A stretch of 64,000 bases of DNA from Eubacteriales bacterium (GTDB taxonomy: Bacteria > Bacillota > Clostridia > Oscillospirales > CAG-382), in the NCBI GenBank assembly GCA_045636665.1, contig JAZTXY010000086.1, positions 2,974 through 66,973 of the forward strand. Reading direction: 5' to 3'. Shown in pieces: positions 11,070 to 34,585 of the stretch. A program made the position numbers and the translations under genes. Below the pieces are notes generated by a model that was given only the letters and a program-made list of their open reading frames with translations, did no database searches and was not told where the DNA came from. Within the stretch, counting starts at the first letter, position 1. Each line of letters starts with the position of its first letter.

Positions 11070-12125
11070 ATGAAAATTAAGCTTGCGATGCTGGAAAGCG
11101 ATCCTTCGTATCTTCGCCGTGTTGTTCCTATGTTCAACAGCAAGTACGCCGAGGAGCTTGAGATATATTCTTTTACGGATGTAGATGCCGCGATGTCTTG
11201 CTTGGAAGAAAAAAAGATCGACGTGTTCCTGGCAAGTGACAGTTTCAAAATAGATTTTGCTCAAATTCCCAAACGATGCGGGTTTGCATATATGGTCGAG
11301 AGTCTTGATATCAACTCTATTGACAATAGAAAGGCGATTTGTAAATTCCAAAAGGGTGAGCTGATCTACAAGCAGATCTTGAGCATCTATTCAGAGCACG
11401 TGCCCAATATCTCGGGGATCCCATCGAATCAGAACGGTATGATGAAGACCATCGCGTTTTGTTCTCCCTGCGGAGGAGTTGGAACCTCTACTGCTGCTGC
11501 AGCTTGTGCCATTGCATTGGCTAATGCAGGTCAAAGAGTCCTCTATCTGAACGGAGAAATCTATGGCGATGCGGATGTTTTCTTCAGCTGTGACGGACAA
11601 TTTGATTTCAGCGACGTTATTTACGCGGTAAAGAGCAATAAGACAAATAGAGCAATGAAATTGCAGAGCACGGTTAAGCAAGACCAGACTGGAGTTTACT
11701 ATTACTCTTCCGTAAGGGTGCCGTTGGATATTATGGAAATGAGTCCGGACGATTATATGACGCTTCAAAACGAGCTTAGGTCGTTGGGTTGCTATGATTA
11801 CGTTGTTATGGATGTTGAATTTCCGAAAACACAATCTGCATTCAAGCTTTTTGAGTGCTGTAATTCCATCGTCGTCGTTAGTGATGCTTCCGAAATTTCC
11901 GAAGCGAAGATAAATAAGGCGATTCGAGGAATCCAGATTCTTGACGGACAATCGGATTTTGCGATTCAGCCCAGAATGTGGCTTTTGAAAAACAGAGCGA
12001 CTGTAAACGAGCTTTCACAAACCGAACTTCGTATACTCGGTGCGTTTCCAACGTATGAATCGGTTTCTTCCGCTCGTATGGCAAAGCAACTTTCCTTGTC
12101 CGACGTATTCAACCAGTTAATGTAA
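11070..12125 (+). CDS. tadZ: TadZ/CpaE-like protein: receiver-like N-domain plus an atypical MinD/ParA ATPase domain
   Basis: The N-terminal CheY-like fold lacks an obvious acidic pocket. The P-loop reads CSPCGGVGTSTAAAAC, a deviant Walker A without the lysine, as in TadZ-type proteins. It sits between tadA and tadB. Confidence 0.7.
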   Translation: MKIKLAMLESDPSYLRRVVPMFNSKYAEELEIYSFTDVDAAMSCLEEKKIDVFLASDSFKIDFAQIPKRCGFAYMVESLDINSIDNRKAICKFQKGELIYKQILSIYSEHVPNISGIPSNQNGMMKTIAFCSPCGGVGTSTAAAACAIALANAGQRVLYLNGEIYGDADVFFSCDGQFDFSDVIYAVKSNKTNRAMKLQSTVKQDQTGVYYYSSVRVPLDIMEMSPDDYMTLQNELRSLGCYDYVVMDVEFPKTQSAFKLFECCNSIVVVSDASEISEAKINKAIRGIQILDGQSDFAIQPRMWLLKNRATVNELSQTELRILGAFPTYESVSSARMAKQLSLSDVFNQLM

Positions 12126-12142: not shown

Positions 12143-12997
12143 ATGAGTAAAAAGAAGAAAGCCCATACAGAGTCGTTGTATGAGGTTTCGGGCACTAACC
12201 GAAAGATGATAAACTACAAGGTTTATCGTATGACAGCCAATGAAAAAGCATTGTACCTCATCTTGGCGTTCGTCATCGGCGCGGCTGTTGCATACCTGTT
12301 CTACGGCGGCATTGGAAAAGATGAGCACGGCAATGCAACGGTTGTTACATATGTTTGCGATATTGTAATCATGACCATCGTCGGATTAGCGGCGGCAAAG
12401 CTGTTTATGCCGATTCGCAAGGAGCGGATCATTGCAGAGCGAAAGAAAAAACTGAGAAGTCAGTTTATAGACCTGCTCGATTCCTTGGCAACTTCTATTT
12501 CTTCGGGTAAAAACGTTCCCAATGCATTTATGGCCGCACGCGAGGATTTGCTCGTTCAGTATCAACCGGACGCGTTCATTGTTCAAGAGGTCGATAACAT
12601 AATCAGCGGCATACAGAATAATATCGACGTAGGTAGTATGCTGTTGAACTTCGGTGAAAGAAGCGGAATTCAAGATATCAGAACCTTCGGCAGAGTTTTT
12701 GAAACGGCATATTCAAAGGGCGCAAACCTAAAGGAAGTGATCCGCAACAGCCATGTGATACTTTCTAACAAGTGTGAAATAGAAGCGGAGATAGAAACGA
12801 AGGTTGCTTCAAATAAAAATGAGCAGAACATTATGATTGTCATGCCCGTAATTTTGATTTTGATGATCAAAATGGCCGGTTCTGATTTTGCTGCAAATTT
12901 CACTACACCTACCGGAATTGTTTGTACGACAATCGCGGTCGGCGCGTTCGTTATAGCATATTTGATTGGCAGAAAAATTTTGAATATCGAGGTGTAG
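12143..12997 (+). CDS. tadB: TadB-like type II secretion system F-family inner-membrane platform protein
   Basis: Has the T2SSF-like soluble helical domain flanked by TM helices, and lies immediately upstream of a paralogous gene (the typical tadB-tadC pair). Confidence 0.75.
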   Translation: MSKKKKAHTESLYEVSGTNRKMINYKVYRMTANEKALYLILAFVIGAAVAYLFYGGIGKDEHGNATVVTYVCDIVIMTIVGLAAAKLFMPIRKERIIAERKKKLRSQFIDLLDSLATSISSGKNVPNAFMAAREDLLVQYQPDAFIVQEVDNIISGIQNNIDVGSMLLNFGERSGIQDIRTFGRVFETAYSKGANLKEVIRNSHVILSNKCEIEAEIETKVASNKNEQNIMIVMPVILILMIKMAGSDFAANFTTPTGIVCTTIAVGAFVIAYLIGRKILNIEV

Positions 12998-13000
12998 GTT

Positions 13001-13879
13001 GTGGAGTTGATTTTAAATATTGTTATTTTGACTCTGTCGCTTTTCTCGGGTCTTTCGTTCGTGTTTTTGCTTCTAACCTCCGGTGAATTTGAAGAATACA
13101 TAAAACCGCTTAATAAAAAGACCTTTATGATGTCTGAAATTTACGGTGCAGGTTTTAAGTTTATGAAGCTGTTTAGATTTGAGTTCAAAAACAGAAGTGC
13201 AAACCAGCTTCGTGAAAAAACAGTGATTCTGTACGGCGAAAGATATGCGGATTATTATATGCGTGTTTTTTACGCTCAAAAAATCAGCATTATATATCTT
13301 TTCTTCACTATAGGCTGCGGTCTTTGTGCCTTGGCAGAGGGCACGGACAAGCTTTTGCTTTTGGCTGTTGTACTTGTTGTATGCGGCACTTTGTACTATT
13401 ATTTCCAGACGTTGCCGGCTACCCTGGTTAAGCAAAGAAGCATTCGTTTTATGGACGAATTCCCCAACGCTGTGTCCACGATTGCGCTTTTGGTTAATTC
13501 CGGTATGATTCTTCGCGAAGCATGGAGCGAGGTTGCTATGTCTTCCGAAACGGAATTGTATATGGAAATGCGTAGAGTGACCGAAGACATAGATAACGGT
13601 ATTGCGGAAGCGGATGCTCTATACAGCTTTGGAAACCGCTGTGTTACACCCGAAATCAAAAAATTCACCGCGCTTATTGTTCAGGGCCTTGAGAAGGGCA
13701 GTCGAGATCTCGCGTCTGCTCTTAGAAACCAGACCGATGAAATGTGGCAGTTAAAAAAGCAAAACACTCTTAAACGCGGAGAACTCGCTTCCGGTAAGCT
13801 GATGATTCCGCTTATGATTATGTTTGTCGGTATCCTTGTAATGGTAATGGGACCGATAATGACTAACTTGGGTCTTTAA
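13001..13879 (+). CDS. tadC: TadC-like type II secretion system F-family platform protein
   Basis: GTG start 3 nt after the tadB stop. Same TM-helical-TM architecture as the preceding gene. Confidence 0.75.
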   Translation: MELILNIVILTLSLFSGLSFVFLLLTSGEFEEYIKPLNKKTFMMSEIYGAGFKFMKLFRFEFKNRSANQLREKTVILYGERYADYYMRVFYAQKISIIYLFFTIGCGLCALAEGTDKLLLLAVVLVVCGTLYYYFQTLPATLVKQRSIRFMDEFPNAVSTIALLVNSGMILREAWSEVAMSSETELYMEMRRVTEDIDNGIAEADALYSFGNRCVTPEIKKFTALIVQGLEKGSRDLASALRNQTDEMWQLKKQNTLKRGELASGKLMIPLMIMFVGILVMVMGPIMTNLGL

Positions 13880-13931: not shown

Positions 13932-14150
13932 ATGTCTAAACTGGCTACTAAACTTTGCATCAAGGGACTTCAGGCGAGGATGAAGTTGAGAAAACTTTGG
14001 AAAAACGAAAGTGGTGAGGCGAACATCATCGCTATCATTCTTGTTCTTGCTATCGTCATTGCACTTGCTATTATCTTTAGAACTCAGTTAACAAATTTGT
14101 TTAACAAGATTTGGGGTTCTTTGTTCGAAGACGTAGATAACGTAATTTAA
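13932..14150 (+). CDS. flp: Flp-type (type IVc) prepilin, atypical mature N-terminus
   Basis: 72 aa. A charged leader ends in KNESG and is followed by the hydrophobic helix EANIIAIILVLAIVIALAIIF. A strong RBS ggagg lies 8 nt upstream. Located between tadC and the prepilin peptidase. Confidence 0.7.
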   Translation: MSKLATKLCIKGLQARMKLRKLWKNESGEANIIAIILVLAIVIALAIIFRTQLTNLFNKIWGSLFEDVDNVI

Positions 14151-14224: not shown

Positions 14225-14902
14225 ATGCATTATTTGTTGTTTTTATTGATTGCCGCCCTTTCGACCTTGTTGGTTGTTTATGTTTCTTCTTTTATGGGCG
14301 TGATCAACATTGGAAAATTCAATATTTATAAACCTTGTGAAGAGAAAATAACACCCTATAAGGGTAAATCTTTAACTTTGCTTATAATAATCTGCTTTGC
14401 ATGCTTTTTTGCAGCTCAGATTTCTTTATATATTAACACCTCGATTATAAATCTTATAAAGCTGTTCGGATTGGCTGTTATTGTTATAAGCGCCGGCATT
14501 ATTGACTCGAAGAGAAGGATCATTCCTAATTTATTGATTATTAGCGGCTTGGTTTTTCGCATCGCCATTTATATTTACGAGATAGTGGGACCAACAGACG
14601 ATTTAATGACAGTTTTAACCAATGATCTTATTGGTTTTGCAATTGGCTTTGTGTTTCTCGCTGTGGTATCCTTGCTTTCAAAAGGCGCACTTGGATTCGG
14701 TGATGCAAAGCTATTTGGTATCATCGGGTTGGTAAGCGGATCGTTTTGCACCTACAGTACGTTGTTTGTGAGCTTAGTGATTTCCGCCGTTGTCTCTCTT
14801 ATCAATATTTCTCGAAAGAAAATGGGACGCAAAGATGCATTCCCATTTGGACCTTGCATCGCAGTAGGTTATATGTTCGTTGTATTTTTAACCAGTTATT
14901 AG
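14225..14902 (+). CDS. tadV: A24-family prepilin peptidase, TadV/CpaA type (no N-terminal Cys-rich domain)
   Basis: Polytopic membrane protein carrying the two aspartyl motifs GIIDSKRRIIPN and ALGFGDAKLF. Confidence 0.85.
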   Translation: MHYLLFLLIAALSTLLVVYVSSFMGVINIGKFNIYKPCEEKITPYKGKSLTLLIIICFACFFAAQISLYINTSIINLIKLFGLAVIVISAGIIDSKRRIIPNLLIISGLVFRIAIYIYEIVGPTDDLMTVLTNDLIGFAIGFVFLAVVSLLSKGALGFGDAKLFGIIGLVSGSFCTYSTLFVSLVISAVVSLINISRKKMGRKDAFPFGPCIAVGYMFVVFLTSY

Positions 14903-14921
14903 AAACGGAGCGTTGAACGGA

Positions 14922-16274
14922 ATGAAAAACAATAAAGTATTAATTATCATAGGCATTATTCTTCTTAATATTTTGGTTGTTTATATGATTGGCCAAAGCT
15001 TGATGGGCAAAACAAGTCAGTATGATTTGACTCTTTCCGAGGCGCGCTCTTTGTCCGAGCAGGAGTTGTGTTCTAAATCGATTGCGAAATATAATGAAGC
15101 GATTATGTTAAAGGACACGCTTGATGTTCGTATCGAGATGATCGGTGTTTACGAAAAAGGGATCGATATTGGTGAATTTACTAATATTTATGACATTGTT
15201 ACATCCGTAACCTCTATTGTGGATGCCTATCGACAAGAACCGCGCGCGTATGAAGCTGCTTGTGAGATGTTTTTGAAATATGATAAATTCGAAGAATGCG
15301 CCAACGTCTTAATGAAAGCGAGAGATCTTCTTGTTACCTCCGATAGAATTGAGGAGCTTCGTAGCCAGGTAAGATATCAGTACACGAAATATTTTGCAAT
15401 GTATACCGAGGTGCTTCCCGTTTTTGACGGTATGTATACCGTCAAGACTGAATATGAGTACACATTCCTTAACGATCAGGGAGCCCCTGATTTTGATGGC
15501 ACCTTTGTCGAAGCTTCTTCCTTTTCTGAAGGCTACGCATTCGTTAAAGGGTCCCATCCCGACGGCACTGACCGATGCATCATAATTAATAAGGCGGGTG
15601 AACGCCAGGCATATCTTAACGGCGTAGAAACGTCTTCCGGCGTAGGACGTGCTAAAAATGCCGAGGGTAGTGACGTTCTCTTGCTTGCATGCAAGGTTGG
15701 CGATAGATATAAATACTTTGATATCAACGGCAAGGAAACTTTCGGCGATTATGCGTTTGCAGGCAGATTTAGAAACAATGTTGCTGCTGTTATGGAATCT
15801 GAGGGCAATTGGAAGCTCATTGACGGAACCGGTAAAGCAATAACCGATGTAACGTTTTCCGACGTGGTGCTTAATGAGTTTGATGAATGTGCAGCAAAGG
15901 GATTTATCTTTGCCAAGGTGGGAGATAAATACTACATATACGATTTGAACGCCAAAAGAATAGGCGACTTTGCTTGCGACGGTGCAAAGGCGTTTGTTGA
16001 TGATTACGCTGCGTTTAAGATAGGGGATCAATGGGGTTTTGTAGGAACAGACGGAGAGATCCTCATCGAGCCACAGTATGAAGATGCGAAGTCTTTCTCA
16101 AACAGTATGGGTGCTGTAAAAACCGGCGCAGGATGGGTATTTATTAATCCTAAAAACGAAATTGTTATTCAAGAAATTTTTGAAGATGTTGACTATCTTA
16201 ACGACAAGGGGATCTGCTTCGTAAAGACCGGAGGATATTGGTCTTATTTGAAGATGTATTATACCGGAAAATAA
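14922..16274 (+). CDS. Membrane-anchored protein with a helical (TPR-like) region and WG/KWG beta-propeller-type repeats
   Basis: N-terminal TM helix VLIIIGIILLNILVVYMIG. Repeats of the type GYAFVKGS..., WKLIDGTGK, WGFVGTDGEILIEPQYEDAKSF, GWVFINPKNEIVI. The ORF-track start is TTG 14913, but ATG 14922 is more plausible. Confidence 0.6.
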   Translation: MKNNKVLIIIGIILLNILVVYMIGQSLMGKTSQYDLTLSEARSLSEQELCSKSIAKYNEAIMLKDTLDVRIEMIGVYEKGIDIGEFTNIYDIVTSVTSIVDAYRQEPRAYEAACEMFLKYDKFEECANVLMKARDLLVTSDRIEELRSQVRYQYTKYFAMYTEVLPVFDGMYTVKTEYEYTFLNDQGAPDFDGTFVEASSFSEGYAFVKGSHPDGTDRCIIINKAGERQAYLNGVETSSGVGRAKNAEGSDVLLLACKVGDRYKYFDINGKETFGDYAFAGRFRNNVAAVMESEGNWKLIDGTGKAITDVTFSDVVLNEFDECAAKGFIFAKVGDKYYIYDLNAKRIGDFACDGAKAFVDDYAAFKIGDQWGFVGTDGEILIEPQYEDAKSFSNSMGAVKTGAGWVFINPKNEIVIQEIFEDVDYLNDKGICFVKTGGYWSYLKMYYTGK

Positions 16275-16290
16275 TGTGAGGTGATACAGT

Positions 16291-17673
16291 TTGAAAAACA
16301 AGAGAGAAAGCGGCGAGGTTGTAGTTGAGGCCTCTATCGTAGTTACACTTGTTATGATTATTATTACAGTTATGCTGTATGTCGGTATGATTCTGTATCA
16401 GCAGACGCTCGTGTCTGTAATGGCAAACCAAACTGCCGCCAATATTTCCCAGGTGTACAGCAATAACCTCAAAGATCCATTTACCGGTTATGTCGACGCA
16501 GAGCGGGTGTATCAGTCTATTACATACGGTAATATGAAGACGGATGCATATATATCGGTTGTCGAGCAAAAGGCTAACGTATTTGCGCAGTATCGCTTAA
16601 AATCCTCGAAAATTTTGGCTAACGGAAATACATCAGTTGACGTACAGATTGTAAAGAAACCGAACGAGCTGTTAAAAAGCCAGATCGTAGTTACTATCAG
16701 AGATCATTACGATATGCCTTTGGTGGGTATGTTTGGCGTGTCGGGTTTAGTGGAGTTTTCTTCTTCAGGTCGCGCTGACTGTGTTGACGTTTTAGAGTAT
16801 GTCAACGGCGTTGAAGCAATTGGAGATCCTGAGGATTCTAATCTTGTCTTTTTGCCGGATACAAAAAGCTGTATGGTTACTTTTGTGCCCGATAGCGATA
16901 AGCCGGGCGATTTTACTGTTGAAACGGTTTTGAAGGGGCATTCGATTATGTCCTCGAATAAGTATACTCACTGTGTGATGCCTGCAGAACCTCAGAAGGG
17001 CGATTTGGAGTTTGCAGGTTGGTATACTGCGGATGGAAGACCTCTTACAGGTACAACGCAGATTGAAGAGAATGTTACTGTTTACGGTAGATGGAAATGC
17101 CAAGTAACGTTTATTATGAACGATAACGGAGCAACCGTTAACGGAAAAGATAAAGATATTATGAAGGTAGTATACGGAAACAGAGCTACTTTTCCGATAC
17201 CTAAGCGTTCCGGATATAGGTTCGCCGGTTGGTTTGACGCTCAAGGAAATTCCTATGTTTCAAACGACACTCGTATTACCCAAAATGTTACCTTGTATGC
17301 AAAATGGGAGTGCCTCCATCCGAGCCGATATGAAGAACGGACCGGAACCGTATGCACCGGCGGAACTATCAAGTATAAATGTGCTCAATGCAACGTCGAA
17401 TTGGGCACAGGATACTATACGGGCAATCATGACAATTGGTATAAGTGTTCACAGCGCCACACGATAAAGATTTTTAACGGTAAAAACGCCTCTGGTGGAT
17501 GCGGTGGATACCACGAACGCGGACAATGGTGCGCCACTTGTGGAGTTACGCATTCTCAAGTGTATTATTATCATGTCGTATGTGCGAATTGCGGAGCAAA
17601 AAGCGGCGGTTGGTGGTGCGGAAATACGCACTGTTCCTATACTATTTACCGTCGTCCGTCCCACCCTTGTTGA
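16291..17673 (+). CDS. TadE-like pseudopilin fused to two Flg_new (Listeria-Bacteroides) repeats and a Cys-rich C-terminal module
   Basis: N-terminus KRESG/EVVVEASIVVTLVMIIITV, with Glu at +5 after the Gly. Repeats: LEFAGWYTADGRPLTGTTQIEENVTVYGRW and YRFAGWFDAQGNSYVSNDTRITQNVTLYAKW. The last 120 aa (from TGC at 17311) hold 13 Cys including CAQC, CATC and CANC. TTG start 7 nt after gtgaggtga. Confidence 0.7.
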   Translation: MKNKRESGEVVVEASIVVTLVMIIITVMLYVGMILYQQTLVSVMANQTAANISQVYSNNLKDPFTGYVDAERVYQSITYGNMKTDAYISVVEQKANVFAQYRLKSSKILANGNTSVDVQIVKKPNELLKSQIVVTIRDHYDMPLVGMFGVSGLVEFSSSGRADCVDVLEYVNGVEAIGDPEDSNLVFLPDTKSCMVTFVPDSDKPGDFTVETVLKGHSIMSSNKYTHCVMPAEPQKGDLEFAGWYTADGRPLTGTTQIEENVTVYGRWKCQVTFIMNDNGATVNGKDKDIMKVVYGNRATFPIPKRSGYRFAGWFDAQGNSYVSNDTRITQNVTLYAKWECLHPSRYEERTGTVCTGGTIKYKCAQCNVELGTGYYTGNHDNWYKCSQRHTIKIFNGKNASGGCGGYHERGQWCATCGVTHSQVYYYHVVCANCGAKSGGWWCGNTHCSYTIYRRPSHPC

Positions 17674-17725
17674 TAATGTGTGCTTTGCAGTTAGTTCATT
17701 TTTTAGTATTTAAAGAGGTTATGCC

Positions 17726-18403
17726 ATGAAAAAGGCGTATATAGTTGCAATTGTTGTAATTGTATTGGGCATAGTAATTACCGCTGTATCGATGTCCTTT
17801 GAATTTAACGATTCGGAAGAAATCGAAGATAAAAATGAGTTATTAAAGTGTTTGACGGTAACAGAGGTTAAGCAGTTTATAGATAACCATAAGGTGGCAA
17901 ACTATGTTTTAAATGACGACGATTGTTTTATTAATGACATTTCGGTTCTCGGTTCGGAATGTGTTTCTAATTTCATTTTTGACGGCGAGGCAGTATCGCA
18001 AATTAAGGTTGAGTATACATTGTTCCAAGATGCTTTCGAGGGTTTGTCCGACGAGGAAATGGAAAACTATGATTTTTCTCAGTATAAGTTCAGCGAAGAG
18101 CATAAAAAGCTTATAAGCGATGCATTCCATAACATAAAAACAGAGTTTGAGAGCTTCGTGGGTTGTACGATTTCGCAGTATGATGTGATTCCTACGCAAG
18201 TTGGTGTTTCTTACGAGGATAGCGATGATCGGTTCTATCAAGGGCACTTGGTAAGAGAGTATTCTGTTCGCGATAGAAATGGCGTGTTATGGCTTTTGAG
18301 ATATAAAGCTGCGTACGGAACGGCACATGCTACATTGATAAAAGTTGTTGACGACTCTGGATACGATGGTTTTATGCCTATTGTAGATTTGACAAAGTCG
18401 TAG
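17726..18403 (+). CDS. Bitopic membrane protein of unknown function, paralogue of 22272-22982
   Basis: N-terminal TM helix YIVAIVVIVLGIVITAV followed by an acidic extracytoplasmic domain. By eye, it shares blocks with the 22272 product (VLGSECVSNFIFDGEAV vs ILGEDAVITYYFDKQGN; YSVRDRNGVLWLLRY vs FSIRDKEGYFWKLSV). Confidence 0.5.
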   Translation: MKKAYIVAIVVIVLGIVITAVSMSFEFNDSEEIEDKNELLKCLTVTEVKQFIDNHKVANYVLNDDDCFINDISVLGSECVSNFIFDGEAVSQIKVEYTLFQDAFEGLSDEEMENYDFSQYKFSEEHKKLISDAFHNIKTEFESFVGCTISQYDVIPTQVGVSYEDSDDRFYQGHLVREYSVRDRNGVLWLLRYKAAYGTAHATLIKVVDDSGYDGFMPIVDLTKS

Positions 18404-18431
18404 AAAAGACTTCCTTGGGAAGGTGATAGAA

Positions 18432-20171
18432 ATGAAGAGAATACAACAAGAACGAGGCGTAATTACAGTTCTTATTTCTTTGCTGTTGGTTGGTATACTG
18501 TCTGTCGGCACTTTGGCAATTGAAGCAGGAAGATATCAAGCAGCAAAGACACAATTGGCTGAATCTAACATTAGCGCTTCGACATCAATGATTGCGGCGT
18601 ATAATCCTGATTTATATGCTCGATACGGATTGTTGGCGATTGACAATGAACGGTTTGCCCCCGAAAGAGCGATAGATTACCTCAATTTTAATGCTGATCA
18701 GGCATTCGGTTATCAAGGAAACAGAGTGTCGAGGTCATACGTAGTTGATTCCGTTGAATTAATGGGATTATACAATCTCACATATCCCTCTGTTATGAAG
18801 AGACAAATCCTTTCTCGAGCAAAATATCATGTTGTTCCAAAGGATTATGCGTTGAATATTTATACGATGGATGCGTTTTTGGCAGACTTCCAAAACAAAT
18901 GTCAATACGTAGCACAGCAACTTTTGCCGGTTGCGAGCGGTGCGGCTGATGCGGGCAGCTTGTCTGACATTCCGGAAGAGATGCAAACTGCTTTAACGGC
19001 GTTGTACGAGACCTACATAACGTTGAAGCAGTATGATGATGATTGCGATATAACTTTGAACGGTCCCACCGTGGCGTTACTCCCCAGTGTAACAGGAACT
19101 GTTAGAAACGATGCACCTTTAGAAGATATTGCGGACATTAATACAGTTCTTAATGACGCTATAACCGTATTGGGGGGCACGGGTTCTTCACTCAGCTATA
19201 ATAACGGAACAGTTACAGATGAAATTGATGTAAATGTCTCAGTTTCTTTTGTTTCTGATATTAAAGACAAACTAAAGTACGTGTCTTCTGCTGCAAATCT
19301 TCAGTCCGATGCAAAAGAACTTGCCGAAAAAACAAGAACTTTGGCTCAGCGTTTAAATGCGGCGATTAATATGCTTGCTTCCGATAAGGAAGAAAGTATT
19401 TTGCTTAATTCTTACATAGCGGAATATTTTTCTAACCGTAATTACCGCATCAACACATATTCGGCTCCCGAAAGGGGAACTGTAATAAACGGCTCTTTGG
19501 ACAACGCAACCTTTGCATCCGCTTGCGTAGAATATGTTTTTGGCGGTGATGCAAGCGAAAGAGCAAATCAAGAGGCTACATACGCTTATATGCAGGCAAT
19601 CAGACTAATTAACAATCTTTATGCGGTTATGAGCGATTCGGCAAGTTTCAACGCTTATAACACATATGTGGTTGCGGCGCATTTGGCATGGGCGAATTTT
19701 GAGAGTATTGTCGATATGGAATTGCTGTCCTCGTACAATATTTCGGTTCCGTTTAATAAGAATAAAATGATTCTTCCTATTAATTCCGTAGAAAGTGTAG
19801 TCGGTGCGTTTTCATCGCACAATACGGCTGATGCGTTAAAGGCACTTGGATATTACAGCGAGGAGAAGACAACATTCATTGTTCCGGGTTCTAACTCATT
19901 TTCCTATAAAGATTCTTTATCCTTCGCTTTGTGGTTTGTGCCAAATTCCGAAAAACTGTTGCGAGTTGCAGACCTTGTTCAATTGGAAATGAGATATCGC
20001 GAGCAACATATTGAAAATAAATCAGCCATGTTTCTTATGAGTGAGCAAAATACGTATTGCAGAATTAAATGCATCGGCAAGTTCAGTCCGTTGCTTCCTA
20101 TACTTGCTTTAGATTCCGGCAATTCTGCGAAAGGAATCACGATTCAGACCATTAAGTATGCCGGTTATTAA
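18432..20171 (+). CDS. TadG-like large pseudopilin / pilus-assembly protein (Tad N-terminal motif)
   Basis: N-terminus QQERG/VITVLISLLLVGILSVGTLAIEAGRY resembles the TadE/G-like signature. About 580 aa of extracytoplasmic domain. ATG 18432 sits 8 nt after gggaagg. Confidence 0.6.
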   Translation: MKRIQQERGVITVLISLLLVGILSVGTLAIEAGRYQAAKTQLAESNISASTSMIAAYNPDLYARYGLLAIDNERFAPERAIDYLNFNADQAFGYQGNRVSRSYVVDSVELMGLYNLTYPSVMKRQILSRAKYHVVPKDYALNIYTMDAFLADFQNKCQYVAQQLLPVASGAADAGSLSDIPEEMQTALTALYETYITLKQYDDDCDITLNGPTVALLPSVTGTVRNDAPLEDIADINTVLNDAITVLGGTGSSLSYNNGTVTDEIDVNVSVSFVSDIKDKLKYVSSAANLQSDAKELAEKTRTLAQRLNAAINMLASDKEESILLNSYIAEYFSNRNYRINTYSAPERGTVINGSLDNATFASACVEYVFGGDASERANQEATYAYMQAIRLINNLYAVMSDSASFNAYNTYVVAAHLAWANFESIVDMELLSSYNISVPFNKNKMILPINSVESVVGAFSSHNTADALKALGYYSEEKTTFIVPGSNSFSYKDSLSFALWFVPNSEKLLRVADLVQLEMRYREQHIENKSAMFLMSEQNTYCRIKCIGKFSPLLPILALDSGNSAKGITIQTIKYAGY

Positions 20172-20183
20172 AGGATGGTAGTT

Positions 20184-22253
20184 ATGAAAAAAAGAGAGCA
20201 AGGCATTCTTACGGTTGAGGCGTCTATCGTTTTGACGCTAATGCTGTTTTTCATATTGTTTTTGTTTAGCTTTGGCCGTGTATACCGCGCACAGAATTTA
20301 GTCAGCCACGCATCGTTGCAATCAGCGGATGCAATAGCATTGGAATCTTATTTGAGAGAAACTGCTCTTCGGTCGGATGCCGAGAAAATCTCGTATCTTG
20401 CTTCGTACATTACGGAATCTACCGCAATCAGTGCCGACGGGCTCGAAAGTCTTAGGTCTGCAAATCTTCCCAAAATAGCAAAGGAAAAATTTATATCCGC
20501 GATCGCAAGCTCGGAAGCCGAGGCTGATAAAAAGCTAAAAAGTATGGGCGTGAAGGATGGACTTGCGGGGATTGATTTTTCCGAGTGTAAAATGGATCTT
20601 GGAAGTGATGACGTAATTGTCGCAATTACATATACACTTGAAATGCAATTTCCTGTTTTTGGTTTTGATGACATAACCGTTACCAAGGTTGCGAAGGCCA
20701 AAACGTTTGGCGAAATATTGTTCGAGGTTTCTACTCGACCCAACAACCCCGGATGGGGATCCACAAGCGGCGACGATAAGGTTACGCACGGTTCTTCCGT
20801 AGTGATCACCGCAACGCCTAATTACGGATATAAATTTGTCAGTTGGAATGACGGTGTGACCGATAATCCCAGAACCGTTACCGTAACCGATGCGCATCAG
20901 TACGTTGCAATTTTCGAAAAGGATCAGTTCGGTGTCAATTTAGGAAAAACGGTTACTTACGATGCAAGCTGTGCCGGAATCGAGCATATAAATTACGGCA
21001 CCGTTACGGGCGCAGGGAATTATGCGTATATGGACAACGCGACCATAACTGCAGTTCCCGAAGCAAATTACACCTTTGTCGGTTGGGATGATAATGGTGA
21101 TGGGATTGCGGATAACACAAGTCCTACAAGAATGATTACCATAGATAAGACGTATAATTTTAAGGCAATTTTCAAACCCGTCACTTATAAAGTTACCGTA
21201 AAATCGAATGATAACTCATACGGCAGTGCGCAAGCTTTTCAAGGAATAAAAAAAGGCGACACTATTGAAGCTGAGTATGGTAGCAGAGTTCAGCTTATAG
21301 CTACGACAAAAGATTCGGTAAGATATCTTTTCAGTAAGTGGAGTAACAACAACACGCAACCATCTGCAACGGTAATAGTAGAGGGAGATGTTGCGTATGA
21401 GGCAATTTTCATAACAAATACATATACCGTTACGTTTTATAACGGTGGTTCGGCGGTTTTCACTACAAACGTAATTCGCGGCAGTTCCGTTAACGGGTCG
21501 AAATCTGTCATCGCATCAAATATGCCCTCTATTCCGGTGAGAAACGGTGCAATATTTGATAAATGGACGTATAGCGGAGGCACCTTTACTGCAACGACCG
21601 TAGTTAATAGCGACCTAAACGTATATGCTTCTTGGAAGTACAACGTTATTCTTGATGCAAACGGCGGTTCTATTTGGAGCGCGCCGAGCAAGACTTTTAG
21701 TATCCCTGACGGCGGTATCTTTGATTTTTCGGCATATATACCCAGCAGAAACGGCTTTGCATTTAACGGTTGGTACTGTGACGGTATTAAATACGCTGAC
21801 AACAGAACTATTAATTCAGCCGCAACTGTTGTCGCATCATGGACATGCAAGCATAGGTATGACAATGGTGTGACAATGTACGAGCCTATTTCCGGTACGA
21901 GCGTAGGATGCAAGAACAGCGCGATTACGTACAGATGCGCGGGTTGTTTTGATGAGTATGTTGTGCAGGGTGAAGGCGCTTGCGTTTTCAAAGGCTGGTG
22001 CGGCACTTGGCATCCGTGTAGTTGGTATACTTATTGCACTTCCGGCTCTACTCATACTTGGAATGGTTACTCTTGTATAACTTGTATTTACTGTGGCCAA
22101 TGCGAGAATCCGGTGTATCGCAAGAGTGGAGGCAAGGATATATATGTTTCTTATTATGCATATTGTAAGACTCACAACGGACATCTTTTGTGGAATCCTG
22201 CAATAAACGCCTTTGAGGAGCGAGTAAAAAAATCAGCATGGCCTCATTCGTAG
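20184..22253 (+). CDS. TadE-like pseudopilin fused to about 6 InlB-B/Flg_new-type repeats and a Cys-rich C-terminal module (paralogue of 16291-17673)
   Basis: N-terminus KREQG/ILTVEASIVLTLMLFFILF. Repeats include YKFVSWNDGVTDNPRTVTV, YTFVGWDDNGDG, YLFSKWSNNNTQ, AIFDKWTYSGG and FAFNGWYCDGIKY. The 135-aa Cys-rich tail starts at TGC 21846 and includes CAGC, CITC and CGQC. Confidence 0.7.
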   Translation: MKKREQGILTVEASIVLTLMLFFILFLFSFGRVYRAQNLVSHASLQSADAIALESYLRETALRSDAEKISYLASYITESTAISADGLESLRSANLPKIAKEKFISAIASSEAEADKKLKSMGVKDGLAGIDFSECKMDLGSDDVIVAITYTLEMQFPVFGFDDITVTKVAKAKTFGEILFEVSTRPNNPGWGSTSGDDKVTHGSSVVITATPNYGYKFVSWNDGVTDNPRTVTVTDAHQYVAIFEKDQFGVNLGKTVTYDASCAGIEHINYGTVTGAGNYAYMDNATITAVPEANYTFVGWDDNGDGIADNTSPTRMITIDKTYNFKAIFKPVTYKVTVKSNDNSYGSAQAFQGIKKGDTIEAEYGSRVQLIATTKDSVRYLFSKWSNNNTQPSATVIVEGDVAYEAIFITNTYTVTFYNGGSAVFTTNVIRGSSVNGSKSVIASNMPSIPVRNGAIFDKWTYSGGTFTATTVVNSDLNVYASWKYNVILDANGGSIWSAPSKTFSIPDGGIFDFSAYIPSRNGFAFNGWYCDGIKYADNRTINSAATVVASWTCKHRYDNGVTMYEPISGTSVGCKNSAITYRCAGCFDEYVVQGEGACVFKGWCGTWHPCSWYTYCTSGSTHTWNGYSCITCIYCGQCENPVYRKSGGKDIYVSYYAYCKTHNGHLLWNPAINAFEERVKKSAWPHS

Positions 22254-22271: not shown

Positions 22272-22982
22272 ATGAAAAAAAGGAGTATTAATATTATTGC
22301 AATACTTGTCGCGGTGTTGGTTATAGCAATAGCGATTGTTATTATAGTATCATTAGGTCAAGATTCTACCGATTCGTCAGAATCGTCATATACGGCTCAT
22401 GGCCGACAAGATGACTATTTGGGCTTTGCTGCGCTTAGCTTAAATTCGGTTGGCGAGTTTAACGAGTTCGCTAAGAAGGGCGAGTACGAGTGTTTCTTGG
22501 CTTCGGATGGGTCTGGCGGATCTATATATGGAGTTCCGATTCTTGGAGAAGATGCTGTTATAACATATTATTTCGACAAACAGGGAAACACGACTGATTT
22601 TCAAGCATTTTATTATCTTAATGCCGATGTTTCGGCGGTAGAAAATTTTAGCGTAAAGCCCTTGACGACACAAGAGTTAGCCGACGGTATAAACGGTGCA
22701 GTTGCACAGTTTTGCACAATGTTTGAATATAACATCGTGCCCACGCTTTATTTGTCGAATACAGACGGAACGTTTGTTGAGGTAGAAGACGATTCCGCTT
22801 TTCAACGTATCGCGGAAGGCGGTTCAAGTTTGACGTTCAGCATCAGAGACAAGGAAGGATATTTTTGGAAGTTATCAGTATCAGCTACAGGTGAATTGAT
22901 ATCTGCCAATATCAGTAAGTATTTTGATAAAGAAAAAACCAAGAATTATGTTGCAAATATCTCACTATATGAAGAGGGGTAA
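22272..22982 (+). CDS. Bitopic membrane protein, paralogue of 17726-18403
   Basis: N-terminal TM helix INIIAILVAVLVIAIAIVIIV. Same size and same position (directly after a Cys-tailed pseudopilin gene) as its paralogue. Confidence 0.5.
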   Translation: MKKRSINIIAILVAVLVIAIAIVIIVSLGQDSTDSSESSYTAHGRQDDYLGFAALSLNSVGEFNEFAKKGEYECFLASDGSGGSIYGVPILGEDAVITYYFDKQGNTTDFQAFYYLNADVSAVENFSVKPLTTQELADGINGAVAQFCTMFEYNIVPTLYLSNTDGTFVEVEDDSAFQRIAEGGSSLTFSIRDKEGYFWKLSVSATGELISANISKYFDKEKTKNYVANISLYEEG

Positions 22983-33421: not shown

Positions 33422-34585
33422 ATGAGTAAGTTTAAGATAGAGCGTGATGCCGGTCAGAGCTTCTTAGTTATCCAAGGGCAAAAGGGTCAACAAATCAGCG
33501 AACGGGAATATTATGCGATAAGCACAGGTCAGATTCCCGGTTTGTTGCGCGCCAATCTTGTTCGTAAAGGTAACACGTTTAAGCTGGTCTATAATATTTC
33601 CGGTTGCATTTCGCTAAGAGAATTTTTGCTTAATCCGTTGAATAAGCAATCTTTTGCAACTTTGCTGAATAACATACTCAATAATCTCAAGGCGTTGCAG
33701 AGAGCGTATTATAACTATCAGTTTATTCTGATGGATATGAATGCCGCAATGGTCAACCCGGCCTCGCAGCAGGTGAGTTTTGTGTACGTTCCCATAACCT
33801 TTTATGAAAGCGGCACAAACCTTAAGGAGTTTTTGCTTAGTATTATTCAGTGCTGTTCGTTTGCACCCGGTGAAAATACGGAATATGTTAGAGAATACAT
33901 AAGAATTCTTAACACGGGTATCAATTTTTCGGTGTTCGATCTTGAGGAGTATATCAAAAGGATACAGCTTGAAAACCGTGCTAATGACCAAGTGAAAAAG
34001 TGCTCCCGTTGCGGTACGTTGATTCAACCGAATGTAAACTTTTGTTCATCGTGCGGAATGAAGCTATCGGGGATTACTCTTGATAGCGCCTATGGCACCT
34101 ACGATCCTGCAAAGGTCGTTATAAGACCGAAGCAACAATCCGAACCGGTGCAACAGCCTATGCGTATGCAGCCTACGCAAGAATCGGGAATGAGCAATGT
34201 GAACGGAGCAAACGGAAACCGTTATTCCGAAACGGTTTCGCACAGTATTTCCGGTATCCCTCAATCCGAACCGATTATGCAGAACCCGAAAAATGCATAT
34301 ATTACACGTTGCAGAACCGGAGAGCGTATTGCAATCATGTCGTCTCAGCTACGTGTTGGCAAGGATCCGCACAACTGTGAATATTGTATTGCCGATAATT
34401 CTGCAATCAGCAGATGCCATGTAGTCATCAAGCACATGAACGGAAAATGGTATATTAACGATTTGAATTCCACTAACAAAACTTATATCAGCGATAGAGC
34501 GATACCCCCTTATACGGATATCGAGCTGTTTGACGGTTTGAGTATTAAATTAGCAAATGAGAACTTTATTTTCAATTTGTATTGA
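33422..34585 (+). CDS. Cytoplasmic FHA-domain protein with a central zinc ribbon; paralogue of 22988-24712
   Basis: Zinc ribbon CSRCGTLIQPNVNFCSSCG. C-terminal FHA motif LRVGKDPHNCEYCIADNSAISRCHVVI...STNKTYISD. The N-domain aligns by eye with the 22988 product (KLVYNISGCISLREFL vs LKYNISAKVTAEQFF; VSFVYVPI vs AMICVPV). Confidence 0.8.
   Translation: MSKFKIERDAGQSFLVIQGQKGQQISEREYYAISTGQIPGLLRANLVRKGNTFKLVYNISGCISLREFLLNPLNKQSFATLLNNILNNLKALQRAYYNYQFILMDMNAAMVNPASQQVSFVYVPITFYESGTNLKEFLLSIIQCCSFAPGENTEYVREYIRILNTGINFSVFDLEEYIKRIQLENRANDQVKKCSRCGTLIQPNVNFCSSCGMKLSGITLDSAYGTYDPAKVVIRPKQQSEPVQQPMRMQPTQESGMSNVNGANGNRYSETVSHSISGIPQSEPIMQNPKNAYITRCRTGERIAIMSSQLRVGKDPHNCEYCIADNSAISRCHVVIKHMNGKWYINDLNSTNKTYISDRAIPPYTDIELFDGLSIKLANENFIFNLY

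What the first reader, a model, noticed from the sequence alone, without database searches (positions are those of the whole stretch)
17311..22253. A shared extracytoplasmic Cys-rich (three CxxC) C-terminal module on both large pseudopilins
Seen: the last 120 aa of the 16291 product (nt 17311-17670) contain 13 Cys, including CAQC, CATC and CANC. The last 135 aa of the 20184 product (nt 21846-22250) contain a similar series (CAGC, CITC, CGQC) in a comparable order: an initial C-x(14-20)-C-x(7-8)-CxxC, and aromatic-rich spacers such as WWCGNTHC and WCGTWHPC. I do not recognise this module.

Inference: it is either a disulfide-knotted or a zinc-ribbon-like tip domain exposed on the pilus. CxxC pairs outside the cell are unusual and might bind metal or act in redox chemistry.
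Basis: partly seen in the sequence, partly recalled or inferred. Interest (0 to 1): 0.6.

Follow-up and report, generated by a model that had tools for sequence, protein, structure and literature searches.

The report
Zinc-type Cys/His tip module on pilins
Two minor pilins of a gut Clostridia Tad pilus end in the same rare, unnamed Cys/His-rich domain, which most likely holds four zinc ions and forms an exchangeable binding head at the pilus tip.

Summary
Residues 341-460 of the 16291 product and 558-692 of the 20175/20184 product each hold 13 Cys and the quoted CxxC motifs.

The two tails are homologous, but only distantly. Direct BLASTP gives E 0.012. Bridging sequences and profile comparison settle the relationship.

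In related loci the tail types are swapped between the two pilin backbones. One type IV pilin-like protein also carries the module. It is therefore one mobile C-terminal module.

Across 22 tails, 15 columns plus a C-terminal position are held by Cys or His. Two columns interchange Cys and His. The shortest tails contain exactly 16 Cys+His.

This fits four tetrahedral Zn(Cys/His)4 sites, not a disulfide knot. The genome shows no DsbB, VKOR or DsbA-like gene.

The AlphaFold model of tail A is confident and all-beta. Neither tail model matches a known fold globally; only zinc-ribbon hairpins match, locally and weakly.

No Pfam, NCBIfam or PDB family covers the module. Only about nine real clusters were found among 1.84 billion representative proteins.

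The function is inferred: an exposed, variable adhesion or target-recognition head. Metal content is untested.

The parts
13932..14150 (+). Flp-type major pilin gene (context)
   Evidence: Translation. The syntenic genes in L001, L002, L011 and L012 hit PF16982 Flp1_like.
14225..14902 (+). Prepilin peptidase (Peptidase_A24), expected to process both pseudopilins (context)
   Evidence: ORF. The syntenic genes hit PF01478.
16291..17673 (+). Pseudopilin A, 460 aa, TTG start. It has a leader MKNKRESG followed by EVVVE(+5)ASIVV, a hydrophobic helix, a pilin body, two Flg_new repeats and the Cys/His tail.
   Evidence: TadE scores 15.7 bits, below the cut-off of 22.9. Flg_new scores 59 bits. The N-terminus is conserved in six orthologues.
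16903..17304 (+). Two Listeria-Bacteroides (InlB B-repeat, Flg_new) repeats of A, read as a spacer or stalk before the tail
   Evidence: PF09479, E 5e-16, two stretches, the best at residues 273-338.
17311..17430 (+). Tail A, unit 1 (residues 341-380): C341-x-H343 ... C355 ... C364xxC367 ... H380. It is a zinc-ribbon-like hairpin unit that also occurs as tandem repeats in other proteins.
   Evidence: The AF2 strands flank the CxxC turn.
17431..17670 (+). Tail A, cap (residues 381-460): C386xxxH390, C404xxxH408, the A-type insert C414xxC417..H421, H428xxC431xxC434, C443xxxH447, and terminal H458/C460
   Evidence: The AF2 model has pLDDT 85.2.
17726..18403 (+). Single-pass membrane partner protein following A, 225 aa, no family hit
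   Evidence: It is a paralogue of the 22272 product and is conserved after A in all related loci.
18423..20171 (+). TadG-like pseudopilin with DUF5702, 582 aa (context; third tip-complex candidate)
   Evidence: PF18960, E 2.5e-14, and a weak Tad N-terminal match.
20184..22253 (+). Pseudopilin B, 689 aa from the ATG at 20184 (the ORF is open from 20175). It has a leader MKKREQG followed by ILTVE(+5)ASIV, then Flg_new_2 and Flg_new repeats, then the Cys/His tail.
   Evidence: TadE scores 31.3 bits, above the cut-off of 22.9. Homologues start at MKKREQG.
20727..21845 (+). Repeat stalk of B (Flg_new_2 and Flg_new repeats); the boundaries are approximate
   Evidence: PF18998, E 1.8e-21, and PF09479, E 4e-13, with the last repeat at residues 489-554.
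21846..21983 (+). Tail B, unit 1 (residues 558-603): C558-x-H560 ... C579 ... C588xxC591 ... C603
21984..22250 (+). Tail B, cap (residues 604-692): C609xxxH613, C621..H627, C634xxC637xxC640(xxC643), C664xxH667, and terminal H691
   Evidence: The AF2 model has pLDDT 69.6.
22272..22982 (+). Single-pass membrane partner protein following B, 236 aa
   Evidence: It is absent in L002, where the B orthologue also lacks the Cys/His tail.

Best explanation
The two tails are diverged copies of one previously unnamed, rare C-terminal module of about 100-150 aa. It is grafted onto TadE-type minor pilins of a monoderm (Clostridia) Tad pilus.

The module is a stack of small beta-hairpins. It is held together not by a hydrophobic core or by disulfides but, most likely, by four tetrahedral Zn(II) sites built from 16 conserved Cys/His positions. 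A-type tails carry an extra CxxC..H insert that may form a fifth site.

The module has two parts. The first is a zinc-ribbon-like unit (H, C, CxxC) that occurs elsewhere as tandem repeats. The second is a cap of CxxxH, [H/C]xxCxxC and CxxH knuckles.

The proposed path to the surface is inferred. After Sec export and cleavage by the prepilin peptidase, the N-terminal helices of A, B and the TadG-like protein form the pilus tip. The Flg_new repeats act as a stalk. The metal-scaffolded heads are exposed as variable binding (adhesion or target-recognition) surfaces.

Shown here: homology, ligand conservation, module swapping, a fold without a global match, and rarity. Inferred: zinc as the metal, the site count, tip exposure and the binding function.
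For: Homology and mobility:
- hhalign of the tail A profile against the tail B profile gives E 2.7e-5, colinear.
- The exhaustive HMM search found B-backbone pilins with A-type tails (P0013, P0014, P0016, P0019), an A-backbone pilin with a B-type tail (P0020), and a type IV pilin-like protein (P0022) whose tail matches both types.
- All looked-up relatives lie in syntenic Tad plus T7SS loci.

Metal ligands:
- 15 alignment columns are at least 60% Cys or His across 22 tails: 11 are fully occupied, 3 are occupied in 20-21 of 22, and the H447/H667 column has one Tyr.
- Column H380/C603 holds 6 C, 14 H and 2 D. Column H428/C634 holds 13 C and 9 H.
- Every tail also has a His or Cys within its last 14 residues (within the last 10 in 21 of 22).
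- The minimal tails P0006 and the second unit of P0018 each contain exactly 9 C + 7 H = 16.
- Cys totals range from 9 to 14 and are often odd.

No disulfide machinery: DsbB, VKOR and Thioredoxin_4 were not found in the genome, while the control genomes were positive.

Structure:
- The AF2 model of tail A has pLDDT 85.2 and is all-beta hairpins with the CxxC motifs at the turns.
- Foldseek finds no global match. It gives local matches of 30-43 aa at 2-4 A rmsd to zinc ribbons: NrdR, Rpa12, Mis18 yippee and phage zinc-ribbon proteins.
- The unit gives sub-threshold Pfam hits only to zinc ribbons or fingers.

Exchangeable head: five or more tail variants occur in different A/B combinations. One B orthologue has a different, non-Cys C-terminal domain.

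Precedent: modular minor pilins and variable Tad tip complexes are published (PMC6916266; PMC12075869).
Against: - No metal was measured and the model coordinates could not be inspected, so the site assignment is arithmetic, not geometry.
- All Foldseek matches have E > 0.09. All zinc-ribbon Pfam matches fail the curated criteria: scores are below the cut-offs except Zn_ribbon_TFIIS, which only equals its cut-off and has no qualifying domain.
- The tail B model has only moderate confidence (pLDDT 69.6).
- The genome is about 80% complete, so the absence of Dsb-type genes is not proof.
- The more divergent tails (L001B, L003B, L004A, L004B) fill only 11-12 of the 15 columns or fewer in the MAFFT alignment. 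Either the alignment or the ligand set shifts there.
Confidence: 0.55

Rival explanations
1. The module is a disulfide-knotted extracellular domain. The Cys form intramolecular disulfides that rigidify a small adhesin head, as in many secreted Cys-rich domains.
For: The location is extracytoplasmic and the Cys density is very high. Most Cys positions are conserved.
Against: - Two or three ligand columns interchange Cys with His, which a disulfide partner cannot tolerate.
- Seven or eight His are co-conserved with the Cys.
- Cys counts are odd in many tails (13, 9, 11).
- No DsbB, VKOR or DsbA-like gene is present in the genome.
- The relatives are obligately anaerobic gut Clostridia MAGs.
- The spacings are classic metal knuckles (CxxC, CxxxH).
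Confidence: 0.1
2. The module is chiefly an assembly or docking element rather than an adhesin. The metal-scaffolded heads of A and B bind each other, or bind the paralogous single-pass membrane proteins encoded directly downstream of each pilin. This would hold or chaperone the tip complex before the pilus extends.
For: - Each Cys-tailed pilin gene is followed by a paralogous bitopic protein in the five relatives' loci where this was looked at.
- In L002 the B orthologue lacks the Cys tail and also lacks the partner gene.
- Both tip pilins usually carry the module together.
Against: - The co-loss is a single case.
- Tail variants combine freely across loci, which is less expected for an obligate A-B heterodimer interface.
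- The module also occurs on a type IV pilin-like protein in a different locus.
- This reading does not exclude a binding head.
Confidence: 0.2
3. The CxxC/His sites are functional rather than structural. They would act in redox chemistry or electron transfer with iron (rubredoxin-like), or capture metal at the cell surface.
For: There are many CxxC motifs. There are weak sub-threshold hits to rubredoxin-like and Fe-S families.
Against: - There is no thioredoxin fold or family hit.
- The sites are mixed Cys/His with C-to-H interchange, which is typical of structural zinc.
- All 16 positions are needed to account for the fold of a domain with almost no hydrophobic core.
- No cofactor-maturation or redox partner genes lie in the locus.
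Confidence: 0.07

Closest known systems
Modular minor type IV pilins (Streptococcus sanguinis PilB with a vWA module and PilC with a lectin module; reviewed in Pelicic 2019, PMC6916266)
   Same: A pilin N-terminal module with a class III signal peptide carries a bulky C-terminal functional domain. The proteins are low-abundance tip subunits in a monoderm, and the grafted domain is thought to give binding specificity.
   Different: Here the machinery is Tad (type IVc) with TadE-type pilins. The grafted module is not a known adhesion domain but an unnamed Cys/His-rich domain, spaced from the pilin by InlB B-repeats. No binding has been shown.
Tad pilus Tip complexes with variable exposed domains (Myxococcus Kil system; Herrou et al. 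2025, PMC12075869)
   Same: TadE/F/G-like minor pilins are proposed to form an interchangeable tip that exposes variable domains. The pilus locus is functionally tied to a secretion system (a needleless T3SS there; a T7SS is adjacent here).
   Different: The host here is a monoderm. The tip domains are unrelated in sequence. The variation arises by swapping one Cys/His module between two pilin backbones. The Tad-T7SS functional link is untested; Garrett et al. 2024 (PMC11217815) also leave it open for T7SSg and T7SSh.
Zinc ribbons (for example NrdR N-terminus, Rpa12/TFIIS C-terminus, Mis18 yippee)
   Same: Beta-hairpins carry CxxC-type knuckles at the turns. Local Foldseek superpositions of 30-43 aa reach 2-4 A rmsd. 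There are sub-threshold Pfam hits.
   Different: All known examples are cytoplasmic or nuclear single-site domains. Here four or five sites are packed into about 110 aa outside the cell, with CxH, CxxxH and [H/C]xxCxxC knuckles. No global fold match was found and no family model reaches a qualifying hit.
Tandem 'H..C..CxxC' units of about 40 aa in Clostridia surface proteins (for example P0021, with a transglutaminase-like core and 4 units; the upstream part of P0022)
   Same: Unit 1 of both tails aligns with these repeats: HxYxExSRTGxxCTGGTIxYxCxxCG.
   Different: Those proteins repeat the unit alone. The pilin tails add the specific C-terminal cap. The repeats are themselves unnamed in Pfam.

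Membership tests
TadE/TadF-type minor pilin (PF07811) | N-terminal TadE-like hydrophobic segment scoring above the Pfam gathering threshold | tested here: met
   Protein B scores 31.3 bits against a cut-off of 22.9. Protein A scores only 15.7 bits, below the cut-off, so A is met only by motif and synteny.
TadE/TadF-type minor pilin (PF07811) | Class III signal peptide: a short charged leader ending in Gly, with Glu at +5 of the mature protein | tested here: met
   Read directly from the sequence. A has MKNKRESG followed by EVVVE. B has MKKREQG followed by ILTVE. Cleavage itself was not shown.
TadE/TadF-type minor pilin (PF07811) | Encoded in a tad locus with Flp pilin, prepilin peptidase, TadB/C, TadZ and the CpaF ATPase | tested here: met
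   Window ORFs and the Pfam labels of the syntenic loci L001, L002, L011 and L012.
Listeria-Bacteroides / InlB B-repeat (PF09479, PF18998) | Repeat profile match above the cut-off immediately upstream of the tail | tested here: met
   A: PF09479 at 59 bits. B: PF18998 at 76.3 bits and PF09479 at 49.6 bits.
Zinc ribbon (fold class; Pfam Zn_ribbon families) | Match to a curated zinc-ribbon family model above threshold | tested here: not met
   No Pfam or NCBIfam family hits the tails. The related tandem unit scores 25 bits against 28.1 for Zn_ribbon_SprT. It scores 21 against 21 for Zn_ribbon_TFIIS, but with no qualifying stretch.
Zinc ribbon (fold class; Pfam Zn_ribbon families) | Two metal knuckles at beta-hairpin turns superposable on solved zinc ribbons | tested here: inconclusive
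   There are local Foldseek matches to NrdR, Rpa12, Mis18 and phage zinc-ribbon proteins over 30-43 aa at 2-4 A rmsd, but all have E > 0.09. The coordinates could not be inspected.
Zinc ribbon (fold class; Pfam Zn_ribbon families) | Bound Zn(II) with four Cys/His ligands | not testable with these tools
   This needs ICP-MS or a structure. Indirect support comes from 16 conserved Cys/His positions and Cys-His interchange.
Disulfide-rich (knottin-like) extracellular domain | An even, invariant set of Cys with no tolerated substitution by non-Cys residues | tested here: not met
   Cys counts range from 9 to 14 and are often odd. Two columns mix Cys and His.
Thioredoxin-like CxxC oxidoreductase | Thioredoxin fold or family hit around a CxxC motif | tested here: not met
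   There are no thioredoxin-family hits. The predicted structure is all beta-hairpins without the alpha/beta thioredoxin fold.
Modular pilin (architecture class of Pelicic and co-workers) | A pilin module followed by a separate C-terminal domain that also occurs on other backbones | tested here: met
   The same tail type occurs on A-type, B-type and type IV (N_methyl) pilin backbones. One B orthologue carries a different C-terminal domain.

The most novel reading that the evidence does not exclude
The multi-zinc heads are the target-recognition determinants of a Tad pilus that works together with the adjacent T7SS in contact-dependent antagonism between gut bacteria. This would be a monoderm counterpart of the Myxococcus Kil pilus plus needleless T3SS. 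Shuffling of tail variants between the two tip pilins, together with their dedicated membrane partners, would set which neighbours are recognised. The domain itself would be a new extracellular four-zinc fold.
Probability: 0.15. Interest if true: 0.75.

Novelty: new variant of a known kind. Interest (0 to 1): 0.5.

Why it matters
Tad pili are a main colonisation device of gut Firmicutes and Actinobacteria, yet what their tips bind is almost unknown in monoderms. This module is a concrete, exchangeable tip head that is easy to express, being 100-140 aa.

If it holds four zinc ions outside the cell, it would be an unusual way for strict anaerobes lacking disulfide machinery to build a rigid extracellular domain. 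It would also be a new fold family.

The module is swapped between pilin backbones, and the locus is always fused to a T7SS toxin-secretion cluster. Together these make the open question of whether Tad pili and T7SS cooperate directly testable.

Tried and rejected
- Sequence searches of both tails against Pfam, NCBIfam and the PDB found nothing above noise.
- HMMs of each tail searched against the six-frame ORFs of the own genome found only their own gene. The module has no third copy in the genome.
- A unit-1 HMM did not detect the superficially similar 'H..ATCTEDG..CxxC' repeats of the dockerin protein on contig C31. I do not claim homology with those.
- P0017, a 4252-aa hit of the exhaustive search, has no Cys at all and was discarded as a spurious low-complexity match.
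- Foldseek against the PDB (both models) and BFVD (tail A model) gave no global match.
- I looked for a radical-SAM or thioredoxin gene in the window as a possible maturase. None is credible.
- I tried to verify my recollection that Clostridioides difficile PilJ carries a structural zinc site. The papers are not held, so I do not use this as evidence.
- Model coordinates are not exposed to the Python box, so Cys-Cys and Cys-His distances could not be measured.

Full report
**Setting**

The window between about 9.7 and 23 kb is a monoderm Tad (type IVc) pilus operon. Its genes, in order, are:
- a CpaF-like ATPase;
- a TadZ-like protein (11070-12125);
- TadB/C (12143-13879);
- an Flp-type pilin (13932-14150);
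- a prepilin peptidase (14225-14902);
- a WG-repeat protein (14913-16274);
- pseudopilin A (16291-17673);
- a 225-aa single-pass protein (17726-18403);
- a TadG-like DUF5702 protein (18423-20171);
- pseudopilin B (20175 or 20184 to 22253);
- a 236-aa single-pass protein (22272-22982).

FHA proteins and an EssC-type ATPase of a T7SS follow.

The same gene order recurs in metagenomic contigs and MAGs labelled Acetatifactor, Lachnospiraceae and Oscillospiraceae-like.

Both pseudopilins have a class III leader ending in Gly and a Glu at +5: MKNKRESG followed by EVVVE, and MKKREQG followed by ILTVE. B passes the TadE Pfam threshold. A does not (15.7 against 22.9 bits), but it has the motif and the syntenic position.

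Both proteins continue with InlB B-repeat domains (Flg_new, Flg_new_2) and end in the tails at issue.

**Observation**

One search confirms 13 Cys in nt 17311-17670 (120 aa) and 13 Cys in nt 21846-22250 (135 aa). It also confirms all six quoted CxxC motifs and both aromatic motifs. The remainder of each protein is Cys-poor. The enrichment is far beyond chance: P about 4e-6 even against an inflated background.

**Are the two tails one module?**

On the window sequences alone the case is thin. BLASTP gives E 0.012 over the first 28 residues, and each tail's HMM fails to find the other.

With orthologues, profile-profile alignment is colinear over 97 columns, with E 2.7e-5 and 74% probability.

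The exhaustive HMM search of 1.84 billion representative proteins with the combined profile returned only ten proteins at E <= 1e-3. One of these, P0017, is spurious because it contains no Cys.

The other nine settle the question:
- Four ~700-aa proteins have a B-type body (37-54% identity to B) but an A-type tail (E 1e-19 to 1e-39 to tail A, against 1e-3 to 1e-7 to tail B).
- P0020 has an A-type body (61% identity) and a B-type tail (E 2e-29).
- P0022 is a 997-aa protein with a type IV pilin N-methylation motif. Its tail matches both types about equally (5.5e-16 and 2.2e-18).
- P0018 duplicates the first unit.

The BLAST was run without composition correction, so those E-values are generous. 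The whole-library HMM E-values (1e-28 to 1e-7) do not depend on that choice.

Further tail variants occur in the syntenic loci L001, L003, L004, L011 and L012. In L002 the B orthologue has a different, Cys-poor C-terminus.

The module is therefore one family. It moves between pilin backbones and comes in at least five variants.

**Anatomy**

The first roughly 40 residues are a unit of the form (C-x-)H ... SRTG-x-x-C-x-GG-T-I-x-Y-x-C-x-x-C. In P0021 (a transglutaminase-like protein) this unit occurs four times in tandem. In P0018 and P0022 it occurs upstream of the tail.

The remainder is a cap with CxxxH, C..H, [H/C]xxCxxC and Cx(2-3)H knuckles.

Across 22 aligned tails, 15 columns are at least 60% Cys or His. 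They are listed here as A residue / B residue:

| Column (A/B) | Note |
|---|---|
| C341/C558 | |
| H343/H560 | |
| C355/C579 | |
| C364/C588 | |
| C367/C591 | |
| H380/C603 | 6 C, 14 H, 2 D |
| C386/C609 | |
| H390/H613 | |
| C404/C621 | |
| H408/H627 | |
| H428/C634 | 13 C, 9 H |
| C431/C637 | |
| C434/C640 | |
| C443/C664 | |
| H447/H667 | one Tyr (P0020) |

In addition, every tail has a His or a Cys within its last 14 residues, within the last 10 in 21 of 22 (for example PSHPC, WPHS, NGH, YRH, CPY). That makes 16 positions.

The two shortest tails, P0006 and the second unit of P0018, each contain exactly 9 Cys + 7 His = 16 in total. In P0006 all 15 ligand columns are filled, so every Cys and His of that tail sits at one of the 16 positions. 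C448 and C460 of protein A are not conserved.

A-type tails carry an insert (WC414xxC417xxTH421). The insert is missing in P0006, P0015, P0018, P0019, P0022 and all B-type tails.

**Zinc rather than disulfides**

This conclusion is an inference. It rests on five lines of evidence:
1. Cys and His interchange at two internal columns and at the C-terminal position. A metal ligand tolerates this; a disulfide partner does not.
2. Cys totals vary from 9 to 14 and are often odd, while occupancy of the ligand columns stays constant.
3. 16 equals 4 x 4.
4. The spacings are metal knuckles.
5. DsbB, VKOR and DsbA-like (Thioredoxin_4) genes were not detected in the 80%-complete genome, although the same searches hit the control genomes.

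A tentative assignment follows from the predicted hairpins:
- Site I: H343, C355, C364, C367.
- One site: C431, C434, C443, H447.
- Two sites drawn from C341, H380, C386, H390, C404, H408, H428 and H458.
- Possibly a fifth site in A from C414, C417, H421 and C448 or C460.

I could not check this assignment geometrically because the coordinates are not exposed.

**Structure**

With a 21-22 sequence alignment, AlphaFold2 gives a confident all-beta model for tail A (pLDDT 85.2, pTM 0.66). The model for tail B is moderate (pLDDT 69.6).

Foldseek against the PDB and BFVD finds no global match, with best E values of 0.9, 1.2 and 0.095. The low-rmsd local matches are dominated by zinc ribbons: NrdR, RNA polymerase I Rpa12, Mis18 yippee, XPA, and phage 'zinc-ribbon' and TFIIS-like proteins.

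The tandem unit gives Pfam hits almost exclusively to zinc ribbons and zinc fingers, none of them a qualifying match.

The module therefore works like a bundle of zinc ribbons. It is not a member of any curated zinc-ribbon family, and its overall arrangement has no solved counterpart.

**Distribution**

- No source names any member; they are 'hypothetical protein' at best.
- In the window's own GTDB family, only 1 of 164 species genomes has the module and 3 of 164 have the A-type pilin body. None of these is in the same genus.
- The locus is therefore patchy and probably moves horizontally.

**Function**

This section is inferred. The architecture of pilin helix, repeat stalk and terminal head matches the published 'modular pilin' and 'Tad Tip' concepts (PMC6916266; PMC12075869). 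The variability and shuffling of the head on a conserved metal skeleton fit a binding surface under diversifying pressure.

Each Cys-tailed pilin gene is followed by one of two paralogous single-pass proteins. In the one locus where B lacks the tail, the partner gene is also missing. This is a single case. It suggests a dedicated partner acting as a chaperone, holder or co-receptor, and I keep an assembly or docking role as the main rival explanation.

Adjacency of Tad loci to T7SS variants has been noted in the literature with the link left open (PMC11217815). Here the Tad-T7SS fusion is conserved in every related locus that could be read. That underlies the speculative contact-dependent-antagonism reading.

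**Verdict**

The module is a new, rare domain family on a known kind of protein (modular minor pilins). Its metal content and its ligand both remain to be measured.

Noticed in passing
L002:13866-16022 and the following gene at 16032: In this otherwise syntenic locus the B orthologue (P0012, 718 aa) has no Cys/His tail. It ends instead in a Big_2-like stretch plus another domain with 2 Cys. The small single-pass partner gene that follows B everywhere else is also absent. This is a possible co-loss of tail and partner.
   Followed up: partly
window 17726-18403 and 22272-22982: The two single-pass proteins downstream of pseudopilins A and B are distant paralogues (22% identity, E 3e-6). They have no family hit. 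They form a duplicated pilin-plus-partner gene pair flanking the TadG-like gene.
   Followed up: partly
own genome contig C31, + strand, ORF from about 3240 (472 codons; not in the window): This protein combines a dockerin, five or more tandem 'H..(A/P)TC(T/S)..G...C..C' units of about 35-40 aa, and Flg_new repeats. The units share the H-C-CxxC pattern, but the unit-1 HMM does not detect them and Pfam has no model for them.
   Followed up: partly
P0021 (MBQ1402487.1, Oscillospiraceae MAG): A transglutaminase-like core is followed by four tandem copies of the same ~40-aa unit that opens the pilin tails. The unit therefore also exists outside pilins.
   Followed up: partly
L010:497-7404: P0022, a 997-aa protein with an N_methyl type IV pilin motif, CarboxypepD_reg-like domains, several H..C..CxxC units and the complete module at its C-terminus, sits next to another giant N_methyl pilin of 1075 aa. 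The locus has no recognisable Tad genes, so the module is not restricted to Tad pili.
   Followed up: partly
window 20175-20184: The ORF of pseudopilin B is open from the ATG at 20175 (MVVMKKREQG). All orthologues start at the equivalent of 20184 (MKKREQG), so 20184 is the likelier start. Pseudopilin A uses a TTG start at 16291.
   Followed up: partly
window about 9.7-35 kb as a whole: The Tad-plus-T7SS cluster is patchy. The A-type pilin body is found in 3 of 164 species genomes of the window's GTDB family and in none of its own genus. This suggests horizontal movement of the whole cluster. No composition anomaly is visible (GC 0.40-0.45 throughout).
   Followed up: partly
window 33422-34585: A 387-aa product in the T7SS part carries 11 Cys with three CxxC motifs. 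It was not examined.
   Followed up: no
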